Origin: an uncultured virus (IMG/VR IMGVR_UViG_3300005095_000031)
Lineage: Duplodnaviria; Heunggongvirae; Uroviricota; Caudoviricetes
DNA length: 64,000 nt
IMG/VR virus record: IMGVR_UViG_3300005095_000031
Direction: 5' to 3' (one strand)
In this document: positions 3,588 to 33,223 of the stretch, piece after piece
How positions within the stretch are numbered: the first letter of the stretch is position 1
Layout: each line of letters starts with the position of its first letter
The notes under the pieces: generated by a model
Databases searched by the model: none
Seen by the model: only the letters and a program-made list of their open reading frames with translations
Told to the model about the DNA's origin: nothing
Made by a program: the position numbers and the translations under genes

Positions 3588-5880
3588 AATCGAAGTACCT
3601 CTCAGTCATATATGTATAGTCGCTTGTTGATACTCTCAACTTTAGAAACTCATCATTTTCAAACGAGCTTTTAAATTGAATACCAAGACTTATTCTCATA
3701 AAGTCAGATACTATTGTCTTTAACGCCCCACGTGTATATATTTCTGCAATATATTCATCTTTATCTAGCGCAAGATCCAGATCATTTCCATATATATAGT
3801 GTATCCTGCTTCCAGTTATCTCAAGGCTTCCATATTCATTTGCCTCAGCCTTATTTATAATTATTTTTATATAATGCTCCTCATCGACTTCACCATTGTT
3901 TTTTATCTTGTTCATTCTTGGCACCATAGGTATGTACACCCTTATTCCATCAAACGGGCACCTGTGATATATATCATAGAATTCGCAAAAATCTACAGGT
4001 CTTATTGTGCCATCTTCTATTAATGAGTTTTGTATACCAGCAGAAAATTTATCTATGAACTCGCTATATATGAACATGAAGTCGTCTATTGACCAACCTT
4101 GCTCTTCAAGAAAATCTGAAAACCTCATTCCATATCTATATTCATTACCAACTCCTCCATTGTATACCTTCCTGTCAAGAATTTTCCCACCAGAATTTAA
4201 AAGCGCATAAAATGCGTCATCTCCACTGACAGAAACATTTACAATATTTTCCAAGTTAGTAGATTCACTATCATATCCAGCCTGAGATACACAGGACATC
4301 AGCTCTCCAAACCCACTATCTTTTATTGCAACAAAACTATTTAATGGAAGCTCGCCTTCTTCTTCTATGTATGCTTCAGGAAGATCCCATAAATCACCTT
4401 CTGGCTCAGATGTTATTCCACCATATGCATATCTTAAGCAATTACCATCATCATCATACTGACAGCAGTATGGTGGCCCAAGCAAGTCTATAAGTACTGG
4501 CTCCCATTCAGCGAGATGAGCATATGTGTCTGTTTTTGCAAGCTCCGTAAAGTACCTTACTGTTTTCTCGTCTGCATCAAAATTGTACTTATCATACGAA
4601 GAATTCTTTCCCCAATAAAATTGAAAATCTGAAATCCTTGTTTTGCTACCTCCACCAGTCCCTGACCATGTAAACTTGTAATATTTATAACTGTTCCGAT
4701 TGTCTATATCAGCATAAGAATAAGTACCGTCACTTTTTACAAAATCGCCCCAATATATCCATATTTGTGTCCAGTCTTCAAGATTATTGCTTGCATATAG
4801 CTTTAGGTATTTCGGCCTGTCTGATGATGAATACTCATGAACACCCACTCTTATCCTAAACCTATTTATGCACACGTCATTTGGAAAGCCTATTGAGAAT
4901 TCACCTGATGACGAATCACATACGAACTCATTAATTCCTGGAGATTGCGATTGCGCACCGTCAAACATTGCATACCAAGTATAATCATACGCAGAAGACG
5001 ATGATGACCTATGCCAACTCCAGTCGTCGTTCGAGTATAGCTTTCTAACAATTCCGATATTGCCGCTAACACCTCCTCCACCATACCACCTTGTTAATAC
5101 ACTATATGTAAAAGTCCTCATCGCCTTTGATTCTATTGGGGTTATATCATACCCACCATAATTCCACCTAAAGTCAAGCATTTTTGTATCTTCTGGGTAT
5201 ATATTGTTCACAAAATTGTAAGACACATTTGCATAGCTGCCCTCTACACTCTTATTGAACCCGTCTTTTAAATATTTATGCAATTTCACAGAATACACAT
5301 CTGTTCTAGCCCATAACTGACTCCATATACTTGGCAATCCGTTATCTTCTGTATCTTTTTTGAAAAAGTCCTCAAGGAATGTGTATGGCTTGTATGCCGA
5401 AAATCCATATAGTGGTTCAAATAATATTTCAGCAGTAGGAGATTCGCAATCTACTTCAGTTATCCCATCTCTATCAACACACGTTTTGTATGCATACATA
5501 TCTGACTCTATGCCTAGGCTTATCAGTTCAAGAACTCTAAAGAATTCCATATTCATGCAGTTGAGCAAGACTGTTCTTGTGAAAGCGTACCTATCAAATT
5601 CAACATCAATATCTATACTATCTATAGAAGAATACGATCTTGTTGCAACTCCATTGTCATCATTTACTGAGTCTATCAAGAATGCCCTGAACTCCTCCCT
5701 TAGTGTAAAAATCTTCCCTGTTCTATTGAAAAAATCTGCACTATGCCTTATTGATAAAAAAAGATCTAACTTTCCAGACGATTCTATATTCACAAAAGAA
5801 TCTTGCTTCAATTCTATCTTGTTGTTTCTATCTAAATAAAAAAGAAGCCCCCTCTCATTTAAATACCCAGTTGTTGTCAT
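3577..5880 (-). CDS. Virion protein with discoidin/F5-8 type C-like domain
   Basis: 767 aa; AMFDG...RPKYLKLYASNNLEDWTQI...YKYYKFTW...RISDFQFY matches the discoidin-like pattern of phage tail proteins. Confidence 0.65.
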   Translation of the reverse strand: MTTTGYLNERGLLFYLDRNNKIELKQDSFVNIESSGKLDLFLSIRHSADFFNRTGKIFTLREEFRAFLIDSVNDDNGVATRSYSSIDSIDIDVEFDRYAFTRTVLLNCMNMEFFRVLELISLGIESDMYAYKTCVDRDGITEVDCESPTAEILFEPLYGFSAYKPYTFLEDFFKKDTEDNGLPSIWSQLWARTDVYSVKLHKYLKDGFNKSVEGSYANVSYNFVNNIYPEDTKMLDFRWNYGGYDITPIESKAMRTFTYSVLTRWYGGGGVSGNIGIVRKLYSNDDWSWHRSSSSSAYDYTWYAMFDGAQSQSPGINEFVCDSSSGEFSIGFPNDVCINRFRIRVGVHEYSSSDRPKYLKLYASNNLEDWTQIWIYWGDFVKSDGTYSYADIDNRNSYKYYKFTWSGTGGGSKTRISDFQFYWGKNSSYDKYNFDADEKTVRYFTELAKTDTYAHLAEWEPVLIDLLGPPYCCQYDDDGNCLRYAYGGITSEPEGDLWDLPEAYIEEEGELPLNSFVAIKDSGFGELMSCVSQAGYDSESTNLENIVNVSVSGDDAFYALLNSGGKILDRKVYNGGVGNEYRYGMRFSDFLEEQGWSIDDFMFIYSEFIDKFSAGIQNSLIEDGTIRPVDFCEFYDIYHRCPFDGIRVYIPMVPRMNKIKNNGEVDEEHYIKIIINKAEANEYGSLEITGSRIHYIYGNDLDLALDKDEYIAEIYTRGALKTIVSDFMRISLGIQFKSSFENDEFLKLRVSTSDYTYMTERYFDYVV

Positions 5881-11033: not shown

Positions 11034-11219
11034 CTATTTCTTATTTTTGCTTCGTGCAGCAGCTATTGCGTGCGCTCTCCTGAGAAGCTTTTGGAATTTT
11101 GCATATTCTTTTTCCGTCATAATATGCGATGACTGCTTGCCCATTTTTCTTTTTCTGTTTATGTAATAAAATACACCCTTGTGCTTATCGTTTGATTCTT
11201 TAAGCAACTTCAGAGACAT
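11034..11219 (-). CDS. Small highly basic protein
   Basis: 61 aa Lys/Arg-rich, overlaps upstream gene. Confidence 0.55.
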   Translation of the reverse strand: MSLKLLKESNDKHKGVFYYINRKRKMGKQSSHIMTEKEYAKFQKLLRRAHAIAAARSKNKK

Positions 11220-11985
11220 CTTTTCTATCCTGGCCGTTTAATATCTTTATTCCATTTTCTACAAGATTATTTATACATCTTCTGTATCCAGCATATGTGC
11301 TTGTATAGTTCTTTACATAAAACTCAGGCTCAAGATCCAATTTCTCAATATATACCTGTGCCCTTCTTGTGGGAAGAAGAACGCCAACAGTATCAAAAGA
11401 AACAACACACATATCAGATATAACTAAAAATGGTTTTCGTCCATCATTTATCAAATAGTCAAGTTCGTACAGCTCAAACCTAACAGTATCAAGAGAATCT
11501 CCGAAAATAGAGCATATATCTTTAAAGGTGTCTTCTATCTTCTCCCCGATATTCATTTCCACAATATTTTCTATTATGCTTACAATTGGAAGGTGAACTT
11601 CTTTCCATATTTCAACAAACTTTCTATCGAATACATCACCGTTCTCCTCGACAACCGCCCTCATATATCCTATTTGATCAAGTAAAATTTTATTTATAGA
11701 ATCCGCCATCTCTCTTGTCAAAACAGGGCTCCCCTCCCTAATAAACATCATTTCAATACTATATAAAATTCTAAAAGCAGAATCTGAATAAAGTAACGCT
11801 ATCTCTTTTGCGACTCTTGAAAAACTGTATGAACCGAATTCTATCTCTGTTAAAACAAAATTTTGCACCTCCTTGAAAACCCTAAGAGCGTCAGAAGATG
11901 CAATTCTGAATACTATATTATTCAGGCGGTAGTTCTTTGGATCACTACTCATCTTCATGGTCAATCCTTCTTCTTCCAGATACAC
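11200..11985 (-). CDS. Hypothetical protein (true start may be the internal Met near 11958)
   Basis: 261-aa ORF co-directional with the operon. Confidence 0.65.
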   Translation of the reverse strand: MYLEEEGLTMKMSSDPKNYRLNNIVFRIASSDALRVFKEVQNFVLTEIEFGSYSFSRVAKEIALLYSDSAFRILYSIEMMFIREGSPVLTREMADSINKILLDQIGYMRAVVEENGDVFDRKFVEIWKEVHLPIVSIIENIVEMNIGEKIEDTFKDICSIFGDSLDTVRFELYELDYLINDGRKPFLVISDMCVVSFDTVGVLLPTRRAQVYIEKLDLEPEFYVKNYTSTYAGYRRCINNLVENGIKILNGQDRKDVSEVA

Positions 11986-25955: not shown

Positions 25956-26183
25956 TTGAGAAAAACAACAAAAGGCCTAACGTCAAGACAGAGGAAGATA
26001 TTTCAAAAAAAGCTTGAATCATTAACAGAGTCTGACATTGCTAGCATATGGAAAATATGGTTCAAGAAAAAAATGACCCCTGAGGAACTTGAACAGTTTG
26101 AAATGCTTAGAAGAGAATATAAGCAGCGCACTGGTAAAATACTCCCGCAGGCAGAAAACAAAACAACAAGGAGTAAACAATGA
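25956..26183 (+). CDS. Small basic hypothetical protein
   Basis: AGGAG RBS, TTG start, overlaps groES start. Confidence 0.55.
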
Positions 26184-26446
26184 GATTTAGACCACTTGGA
26201 GACAAGGTTCTCATCAAAAGAATCGAAGAGGTTACAACCAAAACAGGAATCATTATTCCTACTACTTCAAAAGACAAACCGCTTGAAGGCGAAATTGTTG
26301 CAATCAGTGACGAAATTGAAAAAAATATCTCTGTAGGCGACAAGGTGCTTTATGGAAAATATGCAGGAGCAGAAGTTACTATCGATGGAGAAGACTATCT
26401 ACTGATGTCTGTGGATGATATTAACGGAGTTCTTGAAGACGAATAG
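26180..26446 (+). CDS. groES: Co-chaperonin GroES
   Basis: [47 protein letters not shown]. Confidence 0.95.
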
Positions 26447-26466: not shown

Positions 26467-27468
26467 TTACTTCTGATCTTTTTTAGATCCGAATAATTTT
26501 GAAGCACCATACCCGGCACCACCAACAAGAGCTACAGTACCAGCAGCTTTTCCTGCACCTACAGCAGCAGCTTTATTCCTCTGCTTGGCAAGATTTGCAA
26601 ACGAAGCAGTCTCTTTGCCTGCGTCAGTAAACTCTTTCATACTTTTGGTCTTCTTAATCGCCTCTCTGATGTCATCATATCCAGAATACTTTTTAGCGCC
26701 ACCAGCTACACTTTTTGCAGCGGAAGCAACACCATCTTTTGCAGACTTTAGGCCCTCAAGAATTTTTTCACCAGCTTTTGCGGCCTGCTCCTTCACTCCA
26801 GCTTCTTTTTCAAGCTCTTCGCCATAAGCAGCAGCAATAACAGAATCAACATCATTCAGATCAAGACCAAGCTCACTAGCAACTTCTGCAGCCTCCTCTT
26901 GGGATAATGCACCACTCATATATGCATCGGCAACTCCTGCGCACTTCTCAAGATATGTACCTTCGCTTGCTACCTTCTGAAGAAATCCGATAGCCTCTTC
27001 AGCGGCAGCAGTCTTTTCCATATCTCCGGGCTCACCGTATGCAGCCATAAAGACACTTGCTACATCTTCAGGAGAAACACCAATCTCTTCAGCAAGAGTA
27101 TCACCCTCTTCGGCAGAGATTGCACCTGCAGCATATGCATCGGCAACAGCAGCGCACTTCTCAAGATATGTTGAGTTCTCATCAGAAGCAACTTTTACCA
27201 GGAAGTCTGCAGCCTCAGAAGCTACCTTTTCCAGATCACCTTCTACCTCGGTGTTTTCAGAGGCGGTCTTCTCCATACCTTCTTCAGGCTGTCCATAGAT
27301 GGCATTATGCAAAGCAAGCAGATCTTTGGCCGCAATTCCAGCCTCAGAAGCGATTGCGTCAGCCTCTTCACCAGTTACTTCGCCAGCCGCATAAGCATCA
27401 ACAATAGCGGCGACTTTTTCCAGATAAGTCTTTTCAGTATCTTGAGCGATTTTCTGTAGATCAGTCAT
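26467..27468 (-). CDS. Acidic Ala-rich protein with three internal repeats, multiple xxKxA motifs and C-terminal Gly-rich helix (probable virion protein)
   Basis: 3x TYLEK(V/C)AxxxDAYxxG; own TGATATAAT promoter and AAGGA RBS. Confidence 0.75.
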   Translation of the reverse strand: MTDLQKIAQDTEKTYLEKVAAIVDAYAAGEVTGEEADAIASEAGIAAKDLLALHNAIYGQPEEGMEKTASENTEVEGDLEKVASEAADFLVKVASDENSTYLEKCAAVADAYAAGAISAEEGDTLAEEIGVSPEDVASVFMAAYGEPGDMEKTAAAEEAIGFLQKVASEGTYLEKCAGVADAYMSGALSQEEAAEVASELGLDLNDVDSVIAAAYGEELEKEAGVKEQAAKAGEKILEGLKSAKDGVASAAKSVAGGAKKYSGYDDIREAIKKTKSMKEFTDAGKETASFANLAKQRNKAAAVGAGKAAGTVALVGGAGYGASKLFGSKKDQK

Positions 27469-28551: not shown

Positions 28552-28584
28552 TATATACCATTTGATGAAGCTTAATGGTATATA
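28552..28584. promoter_or_regulatory. Back-to-back divergent TGGTATATA promoters
   Basis: TATATACCATT-11 nt-AATGGTATATA inverted pair between divergent operons. Confidence 0.7.
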
Positions 28585-29275: not shown

Positions 29276-29554
29276 ATGCTTATTATAGATATAACAATCA
29301 ACAGAATAAAGCTTGTGTCATCCATTGGTGCCACAAGAATACATCCTGACGAAGTAGATGAAAACACAATATGCACGTACAGTGTAGGAAGAGTTTTCGA
29401 TGGAAGAATATTCAGGGAGATGGCAAAGGTGAAACATAGATACGGTGACGGGGCAGAAGAACTTGCACGCAAAATGCTTAACGTTGCAACAGAGGATAGC
29501 ATAGATCACCATACAGATGAGGCCGCATACATACTATCAAAGATGGCGTACTAA
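29276..29554 (+). CDS. Hypothetical protein
   Basis: AAGGA RBS, 92 aa. Confidence 0.6.
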   Translation: MLIIDITINRIKLVSSIGATRIHPDEVDENTICTYSVGRVFDGRIFREMAKVKHRYGDGAEELARKMLNVATEDSIDHHTDEAAYILSKMAY

Positions 29555-29567
29555 TTCAAAAGTCAAA

Positions 29568-29576
29568 TGGTATATA
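29568..29576 (+). promoter_or_regulatory. TGGTATATA promoter motif of the peptide/E1/E2/JAB operon
   Basis: Exact motif followed by a hairpin-rich leader and AAGGAG RBS. Confidence 0.65.
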
Positions 29577-29672
29577 GAAATGCGAGGGAGATATACTGTA
29601 AAGTTATCTAAGCCACCCTCGCAAAGAGACGCTTGCAAGCGGCTCTCCTAAAAAAAACACAAAGGAGACACA

Positions 29673-29945
29673 ATGGCTGAAAAAACTTTCGAAGAGCTCG
29701 TAGCCGAGGCTGTGCAGAAAGCACTGTGCGATCAAGCAGTAGGCACAAGCGAGCCTACTGTGACTGAGACTACATCTTCCTCAATCGAGGGCAAAGCTGC
29801 ATCCGGAGGCGAGTTTGAGGAGCTCGTAGCGGAAGCTGTAAGAAAAGCACTCTGCGATGATGGAGGGTCTGCTGCTGAACCCACTGTGACGGAGACAAGT
29901 TCCGCATCCATCGAGGGCAAAGCTGCATCCGGATACGCCGCCTAA
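29673..29945 (+). CDS. Tandem-repeat peptide, putative polyubiquitin-like modifier precursor
   Basis: Two units with 42-aa period, each ending IEGKAASG; AAGGAG RBS; first gene of the E1/E2/JAB operon. Confidence 0.75.
   Translation: MAEKTFEELVAEAVQKALCDQAVGTSEPTVTETTSSSIEGKAASGGEFEELVAEAVRKALCDDGGSAAEPTVTETSSASIEGKAASGYAA
29688..29933 (+). repeat. 126-nt-period tandem duplication (29688-29807 and 29814-29933)
   Basis: 31 of 40 aa identical; ATCGAGGGCAAAGCTGCATCCGGA identical in both copies. Confidence 0.95.
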
Positions 29946-29958
29946 TACGGTACCGACA

Positions 29959-29993
29959 GCAGCCTTCGGGCTGCATACTTAACTTTTTTTTAG
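29959..29993 (+). terminator. Intra-operon hairpin plus T-tract (attenuator or stabiliser)
   Basis: GCAGCC-TTCG-GGCTGC followed by AACTTTTTTTTAG. Confidence 0.65.
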
Positions 29994-30006
29994 GAGACTA
30001 GACGAA

Positions 30007-30960
30007 ATGGATATCAACATAAGAAAACAAATCAGTGATGGAATCGAACATCGATTCCTCACCAAAATCGCAATGGATCCAAATGATTTCGACAACACTA
30101 TTGTCGATGTTGCGATTCCCACCTATTTGGCGGACTGGAATAAGTTCTCGAATTTCCGAGCTTATACCATTTCGCCTACTCTCGCAGGGATGGCAGATAC
30201 GTCTGCTCTTCCGTTCAACAAGCTCATCCAGATTTCTGGAATCGACATGAAGAAACTGCAGGACAATATGAGGAAAGTGAAGAAAAGGAAAATCACGTTG
30301 ACTTCAATCGGCTATGGCGGCCTCAGCATCAACGTCTTTCACTTCCTCAGTCTTCTGTCGTATCGTGTTGGGGTCGATGAAGTATTTCACGAGCTCAACA
30401 TTTTCGACGATGACTACCTAAGCTTTACAAACGCAATACGGTTCTACAAGAACCTGTTCAAAGGAAAAGTCGGCCTGGGAGACCGGGTAAAAAAAATCTT
30501 CCTGTTTGATGAGCACAACTTGGCTGAGACTATTGTGCACCACTCAAACAGGTTCGATGAAGGATCTGTGGAGGCGATGAAAAAACGAAAAAACAATGTC
30601 TTCTTTGGAGCGCCTGATTTTGAAACAAGGCAGCTCCTTGAAAGAGAGCAATTCCTCTTCGCAGGACACCAAGGGGATGGAACGATTCTAATCAAATCCC
30701 CGGTGGTTGACACAGTAGCCACATCTGAGACGTATGGAACAATCAACCTTACGTCTTTCTTTGTGAACATGCTGGTCAACGCATATGGCATGATGGACGT
30801 TCTTGCCAACGGTTTTCTCGAAGAAGAGCACGACAAGATTTTGTTCCAGCATAACTCAAAAGAGCACATCAAGAGCAAATATGAGCTGCTGAGAACAATA
30901 GACACAAGCAGGGATATCGCCGTATACAAGGTGGAAGAATCCCTGAATATTATGGTGTAG
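30007..30960 (+). CDS. ThiF/E1-like adenylating enzyme
   Basis: IGYGGLS nucleotide-binding loop, DDDYLSFTNAIR (DxDxxxxxNxxR), GAPDFETR; no cysteine. Confidence 0.8.
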   Translation: MDINIRKQISDGIEHRFLTKIAMDPNDFDNTIVDVAIPTYLADWNKFSNFRAYTISPTLAGMADTSALPFNKLIQISGIDMKKLQDNMRKVKKRKITLTSIGYGGLSINVFHFLSLLSYRVGVDEVFHELNIFDDDYLSFTNAIRFYKNLFKGKVGLGDRVKKIFLFDEHNLAETIVHHSNRFDEGSVEAMKKRKNNVFFGAPDFETRQLLEREQFLFAGHQGDGTILIKSPVVDTVATSETYGTINLTSFFVNMLVNAYGMMDVLANGFLEEEHDKILFQHNSKEHIKSKYELLRTIDTSRDIAVYKVEESLNIMV

Positions 30961-30969
30961 GAGGCACGG

Positions 30970-32001
30970 ATGGAAGTACTAAATTTAATGCATGCTGCTT
31001 TTAATCAGGAGATCCATGACATCAGAAGCGGCATGAGCTATGCAAATGCAGCGTCTGGGAAAATCACATACGAAGATGGATCTGTCGCAATCCCAACAAG
31101 TGGAGAGAATCGTCTTGATGCTATAGTAAACCCGATACTTGACAACGGGACTGTCTTGTCGAATCAACTCAACGGAGATGATTTCGACGATGCGATTACC
31201 AGATTTCACACTAGCTTGACCAGTGCGAACGACTTAGTCAGATGCGCAACACAAAAGCTCCAAAGAGTAGACAATGCAAGCATGGAAACCATCATGACAA
31301 TTGCAGAATCTCTCATGAATGGAGCACAAGAGCAGTTCTATGGCATTGTCATAAGCGATGGAAGCAAAAAAGTAAACATCCTCCACCCGATCATGGCTAC
31401 GCTTATCGCCACTGGCCAAATTGAAATAGGAAGCAACATTTCTGCCATGATCTACTCAAACGCATGTGATGGGGAAATAAACTATGATCACGTGAGTGCA
31501 TATGAAGAACAACTCAAGAGGTCTGTTGCAGAAGTTATGGGGCACATAAAGATTCCACAGATTAGTCTTCAGGCTAGAGGGAATTACATTGATGATGTAC
31601 TGAATTTTCTCAGAGATCAACAAGGTGCCGCAATTAGTACCAGGGAAAGAAGCAGCAACACTGAAAATGTCTTTATCCCGGTACAGCTGGCATCAAACGG
31701 GCTGATCATTCCTTACTATGGAATGATACATAGCAGCTGGAGAGATGGAACGTACAGATCAGAAAACATCTACCCAATGCTGTCTGGAAATGTTGGCAAT
31801 ACAATATTCACTGGATTTGGGTCAACATGCACAGGTGATCTCAATAGCTCAATGTTCACGTCTCTGCATGTGCTGAGCAACATGAATATCAACAGTATGT
31901 ACTTCGGGAGTACAGTACCGAATGGATACAAAAGCTTTGTTACGGCATGCCAGAGGGTTAGCATGAGGCTCTTGAAATCAAAATACGAAAAGGAGGCATA
32001 A
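30970..32001 (+). CDS. Putative prokaryotic E2-like conjugating protein
   Basis: C-terminal YPMLSGNV...GFGSTCTGDL resembles the PxxNV...GxxCxG signature of prokaryotic E2 families; lies between E1 and JAB. Confidence 0.55.
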   Translation: MEVLNLMHAAFNQEIHDIRSGMSYANAASGKITYEDGSVAIPTSGENRLDAIVNPILDNGTVLSNQLNGDDFDDAITRFHTSLTSANDLVRCATQKLQRVDNASMETIMTIAESLMNGAQEQFYGIVISDGSKKVNILHPIMATLIATGQIEIGSNISAMIYSNACDGEINYDHVSAYEEQLKRSVAEVMGHIKIPQISLQARGNYIDDVLNFLRDQQGAAISTRERSSNTENVFIPVQLASNGLIIPYYGMIHSSWRDGTYRSENIYPMLSGNVGNTIFTGFGSTCTGDLNSSMFTSLHVLSNMNINSMYFGSTVPNGYKSFVTACQRVSMRLLKSKYEKEA

Positions 32002-32003
32002 AC

Positions 32004-33182
32004 ATGGGAAAATGGAACAAGAAAAAAAGCACATACTGGCCTACGGCAAGACCGACGAAAACAACACCTACTGACAAGTACGACAACACAAAGGCAGCAA
32101 TCGTCTTCTTCGATCAATCCAACCTCAATGAGATGAGGGATGAGTGCATCGATGCAGCAAAGACAAGCGAATGGCAAATCCACCACTGGGACCTGAGAGT
32201 GCAACTCTCACGTGACGGTATCACCGTATCACTCTTCTTCCCTATGGCGTTCTACAACTTCGATCAAGAAGTCGGGCCATCAAGCGTGGAGTGGGAAACG
32301 GCAGATTCTGACAAAGAATCAGAGGCGACAAGAGAGGCTGCGCTGGCAAACAGAACAAAACTTTTCCAAAGTATGCCGATCTTTGTGGCGCTCAAAGAAT
32401 CGGGATATGATGTGGAGTTTGACTTCGGAGACTTTGGGTCAATTCATAGGCACCCCGGATCTTTCGGGTTCAGCTCCATAGATACAAGAAAAGACCCGGA
32501 CAACCCTGGGGTGATATACCGCAGGAAAGAAGCTGACAACCTCTGGCAGATAGATTCCGTCATGACAATGAGCCAAGACAAAGACTCAGATGTAAAGATA
32601 TACACTACAGAGTGTAGAATTCTTGACATCAACCCCTCTGAAGACGGAGGAGTAGAAGGAACGTATACCGAGATCCCAACCGTAACCGTAATCAGGAACA
32701 AGGAAATCGACCTGTCAGACTCAAATGATGGGTTCGAGAACGTGTTTGGGAAAGTCGAGAAAAACACTCTCGACAGATACAAAGTCATTGGGCAACTCAA
32801 GCCATATCCTCTCCTTGTGACAATTCTCGATATGTTTTTTGATGCCGAATACGAGTGCGATACAAGCAACGTGAAGGCAGAGCGCATCACGCAAAAAACA
32901 TACGGATCTTATGGAACATACGGTGGTAAAAGCCTGTATGGATCTAACTGGTGGGATGACGAGTATGGATACGGATACGGGTACAGCGGGAAAACAACAA
33001 AAACGTTCGAAACAAGAAGTGATCTCGAAAGTAGACTCATGGACTCATTCCCAATGCATCTTCACGAAACAGAAAAAGAATTCGTGAGGACATCCCTTGG
33101 ACGAATAGGGTATGGTGAGTTCAAAAAACTCGTGGAAGAAAGTGAGCAAATGTATGAAGAGGAGCTTGGGCTCTACGCATAG
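32004..33182 (+). CDS. JAB/JAMM-family metalloprotease
   Basis: GSIHRHPGSFGFSSID (HxH...SxxD) with an upstream candidate Glu (SEWQ); Tyr/Gly-rich C-terminal linker. Confidence 0.75.
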   Translation: MGKWNKKKSTYWPTARPTKTTPTDKYDNTKAAIVFFDQSNLNEMRDECIDAAKTSEWQIHHWDLRVQLSRDGITVSLFFPMAFYNFDQEVGPSSVEWETADSDKESEATREAALANRTKLFQSMPIFVALKESGYDVEFDFGDFGSIHRHPGSFGFSSIDTRKDPDNPGVIYRRKEADNLWQIDSVMTMSQDKDSDVKIYTTECRILDINPSEDGGVEGTYTEIPTVTVIRNKEIDLSDSNDGFENVFGKVEKNTLDRYKVIGQLKPYPLLVTILDMFFDAEYECDTSNVKAERITQKTYGSYGTYGGKSLYGSNWWDDEYGYGYGYSGKTTKTFETRSDLESRLMDSFPMHLHETEKEFVRTSLGRIGYGEFKKLVEESEQMYEEELGLYA

Positions 33183-33223
33183 CGGAGTTCACTCCGCTTG
33201 CGTAACATAGGAACTTTTTTTAG
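33181..33223 (+). terminator. Operon-end hairpin plus T-tract
   Basis: AGCGGAG-TTCA-CTCCGCT then AACTTTTTTTAG. Confidence 0.7.

What the first reader, a model, noticed from the sequence alone, without database searches (positions are those of the whole stretch)
29673..29945. Polyubiquitin-style precursor made of two 42-aa units ending GKAASG
Seen: two units with 31/40 identical residues and many synonymous codon differences. The middle is variable but the C-terminal SIEGKAASG is invariant, followed by GE in unit 1 and a YAA cap in unit 2. This mirrors polyubiquitin genes: head-to-tail units with a capped last Gly that must be exposed by a protease. At 42 aa (one acidic helix with a Cys plus a Ser/Thr-rich tail) a unit is too short for a beta-grasp fold. 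Inference: a new class of small modifier released by the JAB cutting after ASG.
Basis: partly seen in the sequence, partly recalled or inferred. Interest (0 to 1): 0.85.

Follow-up and report, generated by a model that had tools for sequence, protein, structure and literature searches.

The report
Phage tandem peptide with capped glycine tails
An uncultured phage encodes a small protein made of two near-identical 42-residue units, each ending in a capped glycine, next to enzymes of the kinds that process and activate ubiquitin, so it is probably a new, very small protein tag.

Summary

A profile of the unit finds 17 proteins among 1.84 billion. They carry one, two or three units, every unit ends A-x-S-G, and every protein has 1-14 residues after the last Gly.

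In 8 of 8 loci where context is visible, the peptide gene sits just upstream of the same three genes:
- A diverged E1-like adenylating enzyme (hhalign to ThiF: 92.9 %).
- A protein with an invariant Cys, only faintly E2-like.

No Pfam, NCBIfam or PADLOC model sees any of the three, and four literature searches found no description.

Best reading (about 0.55): a polyubiquitin-style precursor of a non-β-grasp peptide modifier. The JAB cuts it after Ser-Gly, the E1-like enzyme adenylates it, and the Cys protein passes it on. Cleavage, adenylation, conjugation and the target are all inferred. A RiPP-like or carrier role remains open.

The parts
29566..29576 (+). Promoter-like motif AATGGTATATA (extended -10 type), 97 nt upstream of the peptide ATG
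   Evidence: The window holds 6 exact copies, and 9 with up to 1 mismatch, against 2.3 expected; 0 of 100 shuffles reach 9. All copies have an ATG-like start 3-4 nt downstream. The same motif lies upstream of the L007 peptide gene. Its function as a promoter is inferred.
29673..29945 (+). Tandem-unit peptide precursor gene (90 aa, P0001), stop codon included
29673..29807 (+). Unit 1 (residues 1-45): helix-prone FEELVAEAVQKAL, a variable linker, and the tail PTVTETTSSSIEGKAASG
   Evidence: alignment A4.
29808..29933 (+). Unit 2 (residues 46-87), ending SIEGKAASG
29934..29942 (+). C-terminal cap Tyr-Ala-Ala after the last Gly
29959..29991 (+). GC-rich hairpin (GCAGCC-UUCG-GGCUGC) followed, after 9 nt, by a run of eight U, between the peptide gene and the E1-like gene
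   Evidence: The fold gives -15.9 kcal/mol, z -3.1. Comparable hairpins lie at the same place in L007, L012 and L032 (z -3.0 to -3.9) but not in L001 or L010. The consensus terminator scan did not flag it. A terminator or attenuator role is inferred.
30007..30960 (+). E1-like (ThiF-type) adenylation enzyme, 317 aa, with no conserved Cys and an N-terminal extension of about 95 aa
   Evidence: hhalign of a 42-sequence alignment against 24 ThiF domains gives Prob 92.9 %, E 3.8e-7, over 165 columns, with the nucleotide-binding motifs in register. Invariant residues are listed.
30970..32001 (+). Middle protein, 343 aa, with invariant Asn136, His139, Asn274 and Cys287; proposed acyl acceptor/transferase (E2-equivalent)
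   Evidence: Alignment A3. AF2 model: pLDDT 72, pTM 0.75. The resemblance to E2 is weak only. One uncharacterised viral relative in BFVD.
32004..33182 (+). JAB/MPN+ metalloprotease-like protein, 392 aa (P0002): Glu56, His148-x-His150, Ser157/158, Asp160; a Tyr/Gly-rich disordered stretch at 301-335; a helical C-terminus
29276..29554 (+). 92-aa ORF just upstream (phrog_3491, function unknown); possibly an accessory gene
   Evidence: A homologue with 55 % identity sits at the same place in L007 only. PHROG hit. Whether it belongs to the cassette is uncertain.

Best explanation
The ORF is a head-to-tail precursor of a very small peptide modifier that does not have the beta-grasp fold. It is encoded by an uncultured phage together with its own processing and activating enzymes.

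Each unit has three parts: a helix-prone N-terminal handle, a variable acidic or Ser/Thr-rich linker, and a conserved 17-residue extended tail ending Ala-x-Ser-Gly.

Proposed steps, all inferred:
1. The gene is transcribed from its own phage promoter. A hairpin after the stop codon keeps peptide mRNA in excess over enzyme mRNA.
2. The JAB/MPN+ protease (32004-33182) cuts after each Ser-Gly, that is after Gly45 and Gly87. This frees two units and removes the YAA cap.
3. The E1-like enzyme (30007-30960) adenylates the exposed Gly carboxylate. Its N-terminal extension may hold the helix handle.
4. Invariant Cys287 of the middle protein (30970-32001) takes the acyl group as a thioester and passes it to an amine on an unknown phage or host protein.

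Shown here: the repeat architecture, its conservation and purifying selection, the invariant capped Gly, the gene linkage, the E1-like profile match and the JAB fold.
For: Peptide family
- A profile of 10 units finds 17 proteins at E <= 1e-3 among 1.84 billion.
- Of these, 8 have one unit, 7 have two, 1 has one unit plus a tail-only unit of 17 aa, and 1 has three units.
- Every unit ends [K/N/A/V]-A-[S/K/A/G]-S-G. Ala, Ser and Gly are the only invariant columns.
- 17 of 17 proteins have residues after the last Gly. The residue after the cut site varies (G, A, S, T, Y, K, N, C, R, H), so the conserved information lies before the cut.
- Selection acts on the protein: 12 synonymous against 11 non-synonymous codon differences between the window's units, and 11 against 0 in the tails of L007 units 2 and 3.

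Gene linkage
- In 8 of 8 loci where a peptide gene and its surroundings are visible, it lies on the same strand directly upstream of E1-like, middle and JAB genes, with at most one inserted gene between. The loci are the window, L007, L001, L010, L012, L031, L032, and L030/G070 across the contig ends.
- The two-unit peptide P0073 comes from a contig of the same length (8,266 bp) as the closest E1 (P0038) and JAB (P0003) relatives.
- The three enzyme genes abut or overlap: gaps of 9 and 2 nt in the window and overlaps in L001.

Enzymes
- E1-like: hhalign to ThiF gives 92.9 %, with IGYGG aligned to GxGGxG, ExDxLSxTNxxR to DxDxVxxSNLxR, Lys163, and GAPDFETR to DxxDNxxxR. The control alignments of the other two proteins score 0.2 %.
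- JAB: the fold is confirmed by two methods, and Glu56, His148, His150, Ser157/158 and Asp160 are each conserved in at least 90 % of 30 sequences.
- Among its structural neighbours are enzymes reported to cut right after the C-terminal Gly of a Ubl precursor: the Caldiarchaeum Rpn11 homologue (abstract of PMC6043591, seen in the listing) and BubCD (passages of PMC11601596).
- The middle protein has an invariant Cys287 preceded by invariant Asn274.

Against: - No biochemical step was observed. There is no expression data (no sequencing run was listed) and no target.
- The E1-like family has no conserved Cys.
- None of the three enzymes is recognised by Pfam, NCBIfam or PADLOC.
- The profile-profile comparison of the JAB-like family with Prok-JAB was not significant. 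Only the metal-binding motif aligned.
- Seven more distant E1/middle/JAB cassettes, from the jumbo-phage clade, have no such peptide nearby. In 3 jumbo-phage records, two of them (near-)complete genomes, the profile finds none; the positive control found 4 of 4. The enzymes can therefore work on something else.
- Some phages carry the JAB-like gene alone.
- I could not fold the unit or the E1-like protein, or co-fold peptide and enzymes.
Confidence: 0.55

Rival explanations
1. RiPP-like or carrier chemistry rather than protein tagging. The units are precursors whose exposed C-terminal Gly is adenylated by the E1-like enzyme for a non-conjugative fate. Candidates are a thiocarboxylate (a sulfur carrier, as in ThiS/MoaD/QbsE, where a JAB removes a C-terminal cap), an AMP-capped or cyclised peptide (as with MccB/microcin C), or another modified peptide product. 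The middle Cys/His protein would then be a tailoring enzyme.
For: - The gene layout (small precursor, hairpin, enzymes) and a helix 'leader' followed by a conserved 'core' fit RiPP precursors.
- The E1-like enzyme has no catalytic Cys and has an N-terminal extension of about 95 aa before the Rossmann fold. That extension could be a peptide-binding domain like the one in MccB-type enzymes (recalled knowledge, not tested).
- The middle protein is not convincingly E2.
- E1 plus JAB plus a capped small carrier is a known sulfur-transfer arrangement (Iyer et al. 2006, PMC1779556, passages; the QbsCDE details are recalled).
Against: - A catalytic carrier needs neither tandem copies nor a high-dosage gene layout.
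- No sulfurtransferase, rhodanese, transporter or immunity gene was recognised in the cassette.
- The modified residues of a RiPP core are usually the conserved ones. Here the best-conserved positions are the terminal A-x-S-G, as in Ubl tails.
- Known E1-dependent RiPP precursors end at the activated residue without a cap (recalled).
Confidence: 0.22
2. Counter-defence device. The cassette exists to interfere with host ubiquitin-like defence systems (type II CBASS Cap2/Cap3, Bil, Bub). The Gly-tailed peptides would act as decoy substrates or be conjugated onto host defence proteins. The JAB would double as a deconjugase of host conjugates.
For: - It is encoded by phages only. All relatives are on viral or metagenome contigs, and complete genomes of 65-67 kb with terminal repeats carry it.
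- Structural neighbours of the JAB include Cap3, a Bil deubiquitinase and BubCD.
- Some phages keep only the JAB-like gene.
- Bacterial E1/E2/JAB systems act in phage defence (abstracts of PMC10097602 and PMC10557695 in the listing).
Against: - PADLOC models of defence proteins do not match any of the three enzymes.
- There is no sequence likeness to known anti-defence proteins.
- This is a statement about biological role. It is compatible with the best explanation's mechanism and is not a distinct chemistry.
- No host is known.
Confidence: 0.12
3. The small ORF is an unrelated neighbour, for example a small structural, scaffolding or regulatory protein whose repeats arose by duplication, and it is not a substrate of the three enzymes.
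For: - No direct evidence links peptide and enzymes.
- A Pfam hit to an antitoxin N-terminal helix (PF23124, E 1.5e-8).
- The distant enzyme cassettes lack the peptide.
Against: - The peptide is linked to the cassette in 8 of 8 visible loci, although the flanking genes are otherwise different.
- The invariant capped Gly matches exactly what JAB and E1 enzymes act on.
- PF23124 matches only 2 of 19 family members, so it reflects one helix and is not a family trait.
Confidence: 0.06

Closest known systems
Polyubiquitin, and archaeal or bacterial Ubl precursors processed by JAB/MPN+ peptidases (Caldiarchaeum Ub/Rpn11; Bub BubAB cut by the JAB domain of BubCD; bacterial operons with 2-3 tandem Ubl domains described by Iyer et al. 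2006)
   Same: Head-to-tail units or a capped precursor. A C-terminal Gly must be exposed. A JAB peptidase and an E1-like enzyme are encoded alongside. The E1 lacks a catalytic Cys, as in Bub (PMC11601596 passages; PMC1779556 passages). The JAB model superposes on these peptidases.
   Different: The unit is 38-53 aa (one is 17 aa) and is not a beta-grasp domain. The tail is A-x-S-G, not G-G. The system is phage-encoded. All three enzymes are too diverged for any Pfam, NCBIfam or PADLOC model. The E2-equivalent is unproven.
Type II CBASS Cap2 (E2-E1) and Cap3 (JAB) acting on the C-terminus of the CD-NTase
   Different: In CBASS the activated protein is an enzyme of about 400 aa, present once, in a bacterial defence operon. 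Here it is a dedicated tandem mini-peptide in a phage, and E1 and the putative E2 are separate proteins.
Pup (prokaryotic ubiquitin-like protein)
   Same: A small, largely disordered modifier without a beta-grasp fold, with a helix-forming handle and a reactive C-terminus (recalled knowledge).
   Different: Pup is ligated through a C-terminal Glu side chain by glutamine-synthetase-like PafA/Dop, not by E1. No such ligase is in the cassette. Pup is not made as tandem units.
Sulfur-carrier systems with a capped carrier (QbsE/QbsD/QbsC; CysO/Mec+; ThiS/ThiF)
   Same: A JAB removes residues after a C-terminal Gly and an E1-like enzyme adenylates it (the gene neighbourhoods in PMC1779556 come from passages; the Qbs details are recalled).
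   Different: The carriers are beta-grasp proteins, are single-copy and are used catalytically. No sulfur-transfer domain was recognised here.
E1-like enzymes of RiPP pathways (MccB for microcin C, PaaA for pantocin)
   Same: A ThiF-type adenylation domain with an extra N-terminal domain acts on the C-terminus of a short ribosomal peptide (recalled knowledge).
   Different: Those precursors are single, uncapped and need no JAB. Here there is no export or immunity gene.

Membership tests
Ubiquitin-like modifiers (beta-grasp Ubl: ubiquitin, ThiS/MoaD, SAMP, BilA, BubA) | Beta-grasp fold of about 60-80 residues | tested here: not met
   Units are 38-53 aa, and one is 17 aa. No Ubl or ThiS Pfam family matches any of 19 family members.
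Ubiquitin-like modifiers (beta-grasp Ubl: ubiquitin, ThiS/MoaD, SAMP, BilA, BubA) | Conserved C-terminal Gly, often capped and exposed by a peptidase | tested here: met
   Gly is invariant at the end of every unit, and 17 of 17 proteins are capped. Cleavage itself was not tested.
Ubiquitin-like modifiers (beta-grasp Ubl: ubiquitin, ThiS/MoaD, SAMP, BilA, BubA) | Covalent attachment to targets through the C-terminal carboxylate | not testable with these tools
   This needs biochemistry.
Polyubiquitin-type precursor | Head-to-tail identical units without spacers, the last one capped, with the number of units varying between relatives | tested here: met
   Relatives have 1, 1+tail, 2 or 3 units. 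Each unit boundary lies directly after Ser-Gly.
E1-like / ThiF-MoeB adenylation domain (PF00899) - protein 30007-30960 | Rossmann-type nucleotide-binding domain with GxGxxG, the conserved Asn/Arg and Lys, and the DxxxR Mg/ATP motif | tested here: met
   hhalign of A5 against 24 ThiF domains: Prob 92.9 %, E 3.8e-7, 165 columns, motifs in register; controls score 0.2 %. Invariant residues G102, G104, G105, N142, R145, K163 and R208 are listed; D204 (in GAPDFETR) is conserved in the family consensus but is not among the invariant or nearly invariant columns.
E1-like / ThiF-MoeB adenylation domain (PF00899) - protein 30007-30960 | Match to the curated family HMM | tested here: not met
   No Pfam hit for 12 of 12 members at E <= 1. 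No PDB sequence hit. One member hits PRTRC_ThiF at E 0.063.
E1-like / ThiF-MoeB adenylation domain (PF00899) - protein 30007-30960 | Catalytic Cys in the crossover loop (canonical E1 only) | tested here: not met
   No invariant or nearly invariant Cys in 42 sequences. An invariant Tyr243 lies just before the Gly that aligns with the GVLG motif.
JAB/MPN+ (JAMM) metallopeptidase - protein 32004-33182 | MPN fold | tested here: met
JAB/MPN+ (JAMM) metallopeptidase - protein 32004-33182 | Catalytic motif Glu ... His-x-His-x(7)-Ser-x-x-Asp | tested here: met
   E56, H148, H150, S157/S158 and D160 are each conserved in at least 90 % of 30 sequences. The spacing is one residue shorter than the textbook motif (motif recalled). 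In hhalign this is the only stretch that aligns with Prok-JAB.
JAB/MPN+ (JAMM) metallopeptidase - protein 32004-33182 | Match to family profiles (PF14464/PF01398) | tested here: inconclusive
   No Pfam hit in 30 of 30 members. hhalign against 20-21 Prok-JAB domains: Prob 0.3-2.5 %, E 0.019-0.18.
E2 / UBC fold - protein 30970-32001 | UBC fold | tested here: inconclusive
E2 / UBC fold - protein 30970-32001 | Catalytic Cys preceded by a conserved Asn (HPN...C) | tested here: inconclusive
   Invariant N274 and C287 lie 13 residues apart in a loop after a beta-meander. Whether they superpose on E2 active-site residues could not be read from the tools.
Pup / PafA system | Glutamine-synthetase-like ligase and a C-terminal GGQ/GGE | tested here: not met
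   No such family in the cassette. The tail is A-x-S-G plus a cap.
Antitoxin Xre/MbcA/ParS-like N-terminal domain (PF23124) | Family-wide match to the HMM | tested here: not met
   Only P0001 (above cut-off) and P0073 (below cut-off) match, of 19 members.

The most novel reading that the evidence does not exclude
Tailed phages encode a previously unrecognised class of ribosomally made 'mini-modifiers'. These are 40-50-residue peptides without a ubiquitin fold. They are made as polyubiquitin-like tandem precursors, trimmed by a dedicated JAB protease, and attached through their C-terminal Gly by a private E1/E2-like pair to phage or host proteins during infection. If so, E1-type conjugation does not need a beta-grasp modifier: a helix handle plus an extended A-x-S-G tail is enough.
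Probability: 0.4. Interest if true: 0.92.

Novelty: new variant of a known kind. Interest (0 to 1): 0.84.

Why it matters
All known E1-activated protein modifiers are beta-grasp proteins. The one exception is CBASS, where the activated protein is an enzyme.

A dedicated tandem-encoded peptide of about 45 residues used by an E1/JAB system would:
- show what the minimal modifier for this chemistry is;
- add a phage-side conjugation system to a field that so far knows mostly bacterial defence versions;
- offer a very small, genetically encodable tag with its own ligase and protease.

The family is clean and testable. It comprises 17 peptides with 1-3 units and three co-inherited enzymes, and the predicted cleavage sites, Gly45 and Gly87, can be checked by intact-mass measurement.

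Tried and rejected
Peptide searches
- The word-indexed homologue search with P0001 found only itself. The exhaustive profile search was needed.
- Peptide-based locus scans in IMG/VR found nothing.

Searches with the enzymes
- tblastn against 50,697 deposited phage genomes gave no match for the window's E1-like, middle and JAB-like proteins, the L005 JAB or the L032 E1.
- Single-protein locus scans of IMG/VR with the window's E1 and JAB returned no locus.
- Pfam, PHROGs, NCBIfam and PADLOC gave no informative hit on the enzymes.
- PDB sequence profiles gave nothing for E1 or JAB.
- ESM Atlas gave no feature hits, and its own models had pLDDT 0.31-0.38, so the structural rows are meaningless.

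Folding and structure tools
- Complex prediction (peptide with E1 dimer) was not available.
It later ran for the middle and JAB proteins only.

Expression: no sequencing run was listed for 29400-33200, and no RNA holder was listed.

Ideas considered and dropped
- PF23124 antitoxin helix: 2 of 19 members only.
- Double-glycine bacteriocin leader: rejected by reasoning. The hydrophobic positions before the cut do not fit the recalled consensus, and there is no peptidase-transporter gene.
- Amphipathic-helix test: the hydrophobic moment beats 95 % of shuffles in only 7 of 23 units. The 'helix handle' is therefore a weak inference.
- The consensus terminator scan did not flag the post-gene hairpin.

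Distant cassettes
- The SG-peptide profile found none in 3 jumbo-phage records (272 kb at 97 %, 137 kb at 49 %, 281 kb at 100 % complete), while the positive control found 4 of 4.
- A search for an E1-like gene elsewhere in two JAB-only records (23-41 % complete) found none. This shows little.

P0089 (445 aa), listed in the cluster of peptide P0082, is unrelated.
Full report
**Observation**

ORF 29673-29945 on the + strand encodes MAEKTFEELVAEAVQKALCDQAVGTSEPTVTETTSSSIEGKAASG | GEFEELVAEAVRKALCDDGGSAAEPTVTETSSASIEGKAASG | YAA.
- The best self-offset is 42 residues.
- Of 42 codon pairs, 19 are identical, 12 differ synonymously and 11 non-synonymously. Six of the 11 non-synonymous changes fall in the linker, residues 21-26.
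- A Shine-Dalgarno-like AAAGGAGA precedes the ATG.

**Setting**

The window is a fragment of an uncultured tailed phage.
- It carries a GroES homologue, HNH endonucleases, virion structural protein families and an RNA ligase. Most genes have no family.
- There are no tRNAs and no host genome is held.
- The ORF opens a + strand block at about 28.5-34.2 kb inside a mainly - strand genome.
- Three tightly packed genes follow it: 30007-30960 (317 aa), 30970-32001 (343 aa) and 32004-33182 (392 aa). They are separated by 9 and 2 nt.

**The peptide is a family with a variable number of units**

The word-indexed search found only the query. The context came from the enzymes instead.
- The 392-aa protein has 29 relatives. 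Locus scans with its alignment and with the E1-like alignment gave 35 loci.
- In L007, the closest locus (E1 44 %, JAB 42 % identity), the syntenic ORF has three units. Each ends SLKTKASSG, and the cap is SL.
- L001 has one unit (…TGKAKSG + TV).
- L010 has one unit (…ETNASSG + YQG).
- L012 has a 17-residue tail-only unit plus a full unit (…RVKAKSG | …LKTAAKSG + K).
- L031 and L032 have one unit (…LKVAAGSG + N or K).
- In L030/G070 the gene runs across the ends of a terminally repeated genome.

An HMM of 10 units (A4) was read against 1.84 billion representative proteins. It found 17 at E <= 1e-3 (sequences).
- Unit counts: 8 proteins have one unit, 7 have two, 1 has one unit plus a tail, and 1 has three.
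- The only invariant columns are the Ala, Ser and Gly of the terminal A-x-S-G.
- The 17 residues before the end follow x-V-x-[S/T/E]-[V/T]-x-[S/T]-x-[S/T]-[L/I]-x-x-x-A-x-S-G. This alternating pattern is what an extended strand would show (inference).
- All 17 proteins continue past the last Gly by 1-14 residues. The first residue after each Ser-Gly is not conserved.
- In L007, the last 20 codons of units 2 and 3 differ at 11 codons without changing the protein.

**Linkage**

- In 8 of 8 loci where a peptide gene and its surroundings are visible, it lies on the same strand just upstream of the E1-like gene. Two loci have a single inserted gene: an HNH-like ORF in L001 and a DUF2958 ORF in L010.
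- The other flanking genes are not shared. The exception is a 92-aa ORF found in the window and L007.
- P0073 is the two-unit peptide most like the window's. It comes from a contig of the same length (8,266 bp) as the closest E1 and JAB relatives.
- A stable hairpin follows the stop codon in the window, L007, L012 and L032 (z -3.0 to -3.9), but not where a gene is inserted.
- The motif AATGGTATATA lies 97 nt upstream of the ATG. It has 6 exact copies in the window, or 9 with up to 1 mismatch against 2.3 expected, each followed by ATG after 3-4 nt, and it recurs before the L007 peptide gene.
- I read this as the peptide gene having its own promoter and a partial terminator, giving more peptide message than enzyme message. 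That reading is inferred.

**The enzymes**

None of the three families is seen by Pfam, PHROGs (named families), NCBIfam, PADLOC or PDB sequence profiles.

*E1-like protein (30007-30960)*
- I compared a 42-sequence alignment (A5) by hhalign with 24 ThiF domains. These were taken from 24 of the 41 PF00899 matches.
- The result was Prob 92.9 %, E 3.8e-7, over 165 columns.
- The motifs align: IGYGG on GxGGxG, ExDxLSxTNxxR on DxDxVxxSNLxR, Lys163, and GAPDFETR on DxxDNxxxR.
- The alignments of the other two proteins scored 0.2 % against the same target.
- No Cys is conserved. An invariant Tyr243 sits just before the Gly that aligns with the GVLG motif.
- In Bub systems an E1 without Cys uses a crossover-loop Tyr (PMC11601596, passages). 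For this family that is a lead, not a finding.

*JAB-like protein (32004-33182)*
- Glu56, His148, His150, Ser157/158 and Asp160 are each conserved in at least 90 % of 30 sequences.
- hhalign against Prok-JAB domains was not significant and aligned only this motif.
- The AF2 model (pLDDT 83.9) settles the fold.
  - Foldseek gives 38 PDB hits at E <= 1e-3. All of those hits shown in the table (its rows with E <= 1e-3) are JAB/MPN-domain chains or chains of complexes that contain them: BRCC36, the Caldiarchaeum Rpn11 homologue with ubiquitin, Rpn11, AMSH, CSN5, Prp8, Npl4 and BubCD.
- Residues 301-335 (Tyr/Gly-rich) are disordered and 335-392 are helical.

*Middle protein (30970-32001)*
- Fourteen sequences share invariant Asn136, His139, Pro248-Tyr249, Gly251, Asn274, Cys287, Gly289, Asn306 and Ser309.
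- The model (pLDDT 72, pTM 0.75) has an N-terminal helix, an inserted alpha/beta region, a beta-meander, a loop bearing Asn274 and Cys287, and a long C-terminal helix.
- Foldseek finds nothing at E <= 1e-3, yet its weak list is mostly E2 enzymes.
- I therefore call it a conserved Cys/His protein, possibly a much-altered E2.
- One uncharacterised viral protein in BFVD is a clear relative (E 1.8e-14).

**Interpretation**

JAB/MPN+ peptidases that work with Ubls cut directly after the C-terminal Gly. E1-like enzymes adenylate that Gly. A capped Gly at the end of every unit is what both enzymes would need, and the peptide is always encoded with them.
- Tandem units, single-unit relatives and a tail-only unit indicate that the unit, and within it the tail, is the functional element.
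- Tandem copies and a separate promoter and hairpin fit a substance consumed in stoichiometric amounts.
- The most likely reading (0.55) is therefore a polyubiquitin-style precursor of a peptide modifier. The JAB trims it, the E1-like enzyme activates it, and Cys287 of the middle protein hands it on.
- The unit is not a member of the Ubl (beta-grasp) family. It works like one.

*What weakens this reading*
- No reaction was seen.
- The E2 assignment is weak.
- Seven distant cassettes in jumbo phages lack the peptide. The profile finds none in 3 jumbo-phage records, two of them (near-)complete genomes, and the control found 4 of 4.
- Some phages carry the JAB-like gene alone, beside topoisomerase and SbcD-like genes.

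*Rivals*
- RiPP-like or carrier chemistry (0.22).
- A counter-defence role, which is compatible with the same mechanism (0.12).
- A mere neighbour (0.06).

**Novelty**

- Bacterial E1/E2/JAB operons with two or three tandem beta-grasp Ubl domains were described in 2006 (PMC1779556, passages).
- JAB-mediated exposure of a Ubl Gly is shown for Bub (PMC11601596, passages). [quoted passage not shown]
- Four full-text searches returned no paper on a phage-encoded cassette of this type or on a peptide modifier without a beta-grasp fold used by an E1. Subscription journals and supplements were not covered.
- No deposited phage genome matches any of the three enzymes.
- I rate it a new variant of a known kind (E1/JAB conjugation-type systems). 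The modifier itself is possibly of a new class.

**Limits**

- The unit and the E1-like protein were not folded.
- No co-fold was possible.
- No expression data were found.
- The helix handle is supported only weakly: 7 of 23 units beat 95 % of shuffles in hydrophobic moment.

Noticed in passing
window 9554, 18962, 24738, 28552, 28574, 29566, 36650, 46684, 53600: The motif AATGGTATATA (an extended -10-like TGGTATATA) recurs, usually followed by n-a-n-ATG 3-4 nt later. It has 6 exact copies, or 9 with up to 1 mismatch, against 2.3 expected. It is probably this phage's own promoter class. Two copies face each other at 28552/28574. The ATG of the listed ORFs 28575 and 24752 lies within or right after the motif, so those starts may be miscalled.
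   Followed up: partly
L030:2539-4248, L031:5970-7679, L032:6060-7781: In three related phages the JAB-like gene is split inside the metal-binding motif. A 132-aa ORF ends …HKHP and a 261-aa ORF contains …GQSFSGTD…. A 180-184-aa ORF of no known family lies between them on the same strand. It looks like a gene split by an inserted element.
   Followed up: partly
L004:~3700-3760, L021:~690-740, L005:3628-3723, L024:~2480-2546, L022:263-355: Jumbo-phage versions of the E1/middle/JAB cassette lack the SG peptide. Instead they have tiny acidic ORFs just upstream of the E1-like gene: MEVIVGGGDNDFDLM, …GTYVYDGSDDEDTGIITFI and …HDYIYGDDDNDYDIFI. These may be a different, even smaller substrate with Gly followed by an acidic cap. 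This is unverified.
   Followed up: no
L003:5761-7872, L006:5755-7851 (also L015-L017, L019, L026): Long forms of the JAB-like protein (about 700 aa, with a Lys-rich N-terminus and a long C-terminal extension) stand alone between a topoisomerase II-like gene and an SbcD/Mre11-like nuclease gene, with no E1-like or middle gene nearby.
   Followed up: partly
window 32904-33008 (residues 301-335 of the JAB-like protein): A Tyr/Gly/Trp-rich low-complexity stretch (…YGSYGTYGGKSLYGSNWWDDEYGYGYGYSG…) is kept in kind, though not in sequence, across the 30 relatives. It is disordered in the model. Its purpose is unknown.
   Followed up: no
window 26467-27468 (-): A 333-aa Ala/Glu-rich protein with what look by eye like three internal repeats (…TYLEK[V/C]A…ADAYA.G….EEA…AAYG…EKTA) and a Gly/Ala/Lys-rich C-terminus. 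It has no family and lies next to a GroES homologue (26180-26446, Cpn10 E 7e-25).
   Followed up: no
L010:612-929 and L001:3181-3843: Single genes are inserted between the peptide gene and the E1-like gene: a DUF2958 protein (E 5.6e-16) in L010 and a 220-aa ORF with no significant Pfam match, HNH/AP2-like only by eye, in L001. Where they are inserted, the post-peptide hairpin is missing.
   Followed up: partly
L035:1720-4044: On a 4-kb contig binned into a Chlorobiota MAG, the JAB-like gene precedes the E1-like gene, so the order is reversed. It is probably a phage contig in the bin.
   Followed up: no
window 11200-11985 (-): A phage ORF matching an ABC-transporter ATPase PHROG (phrog_19088, E 5e-28), an auxiliary gene.
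   Followed up: no
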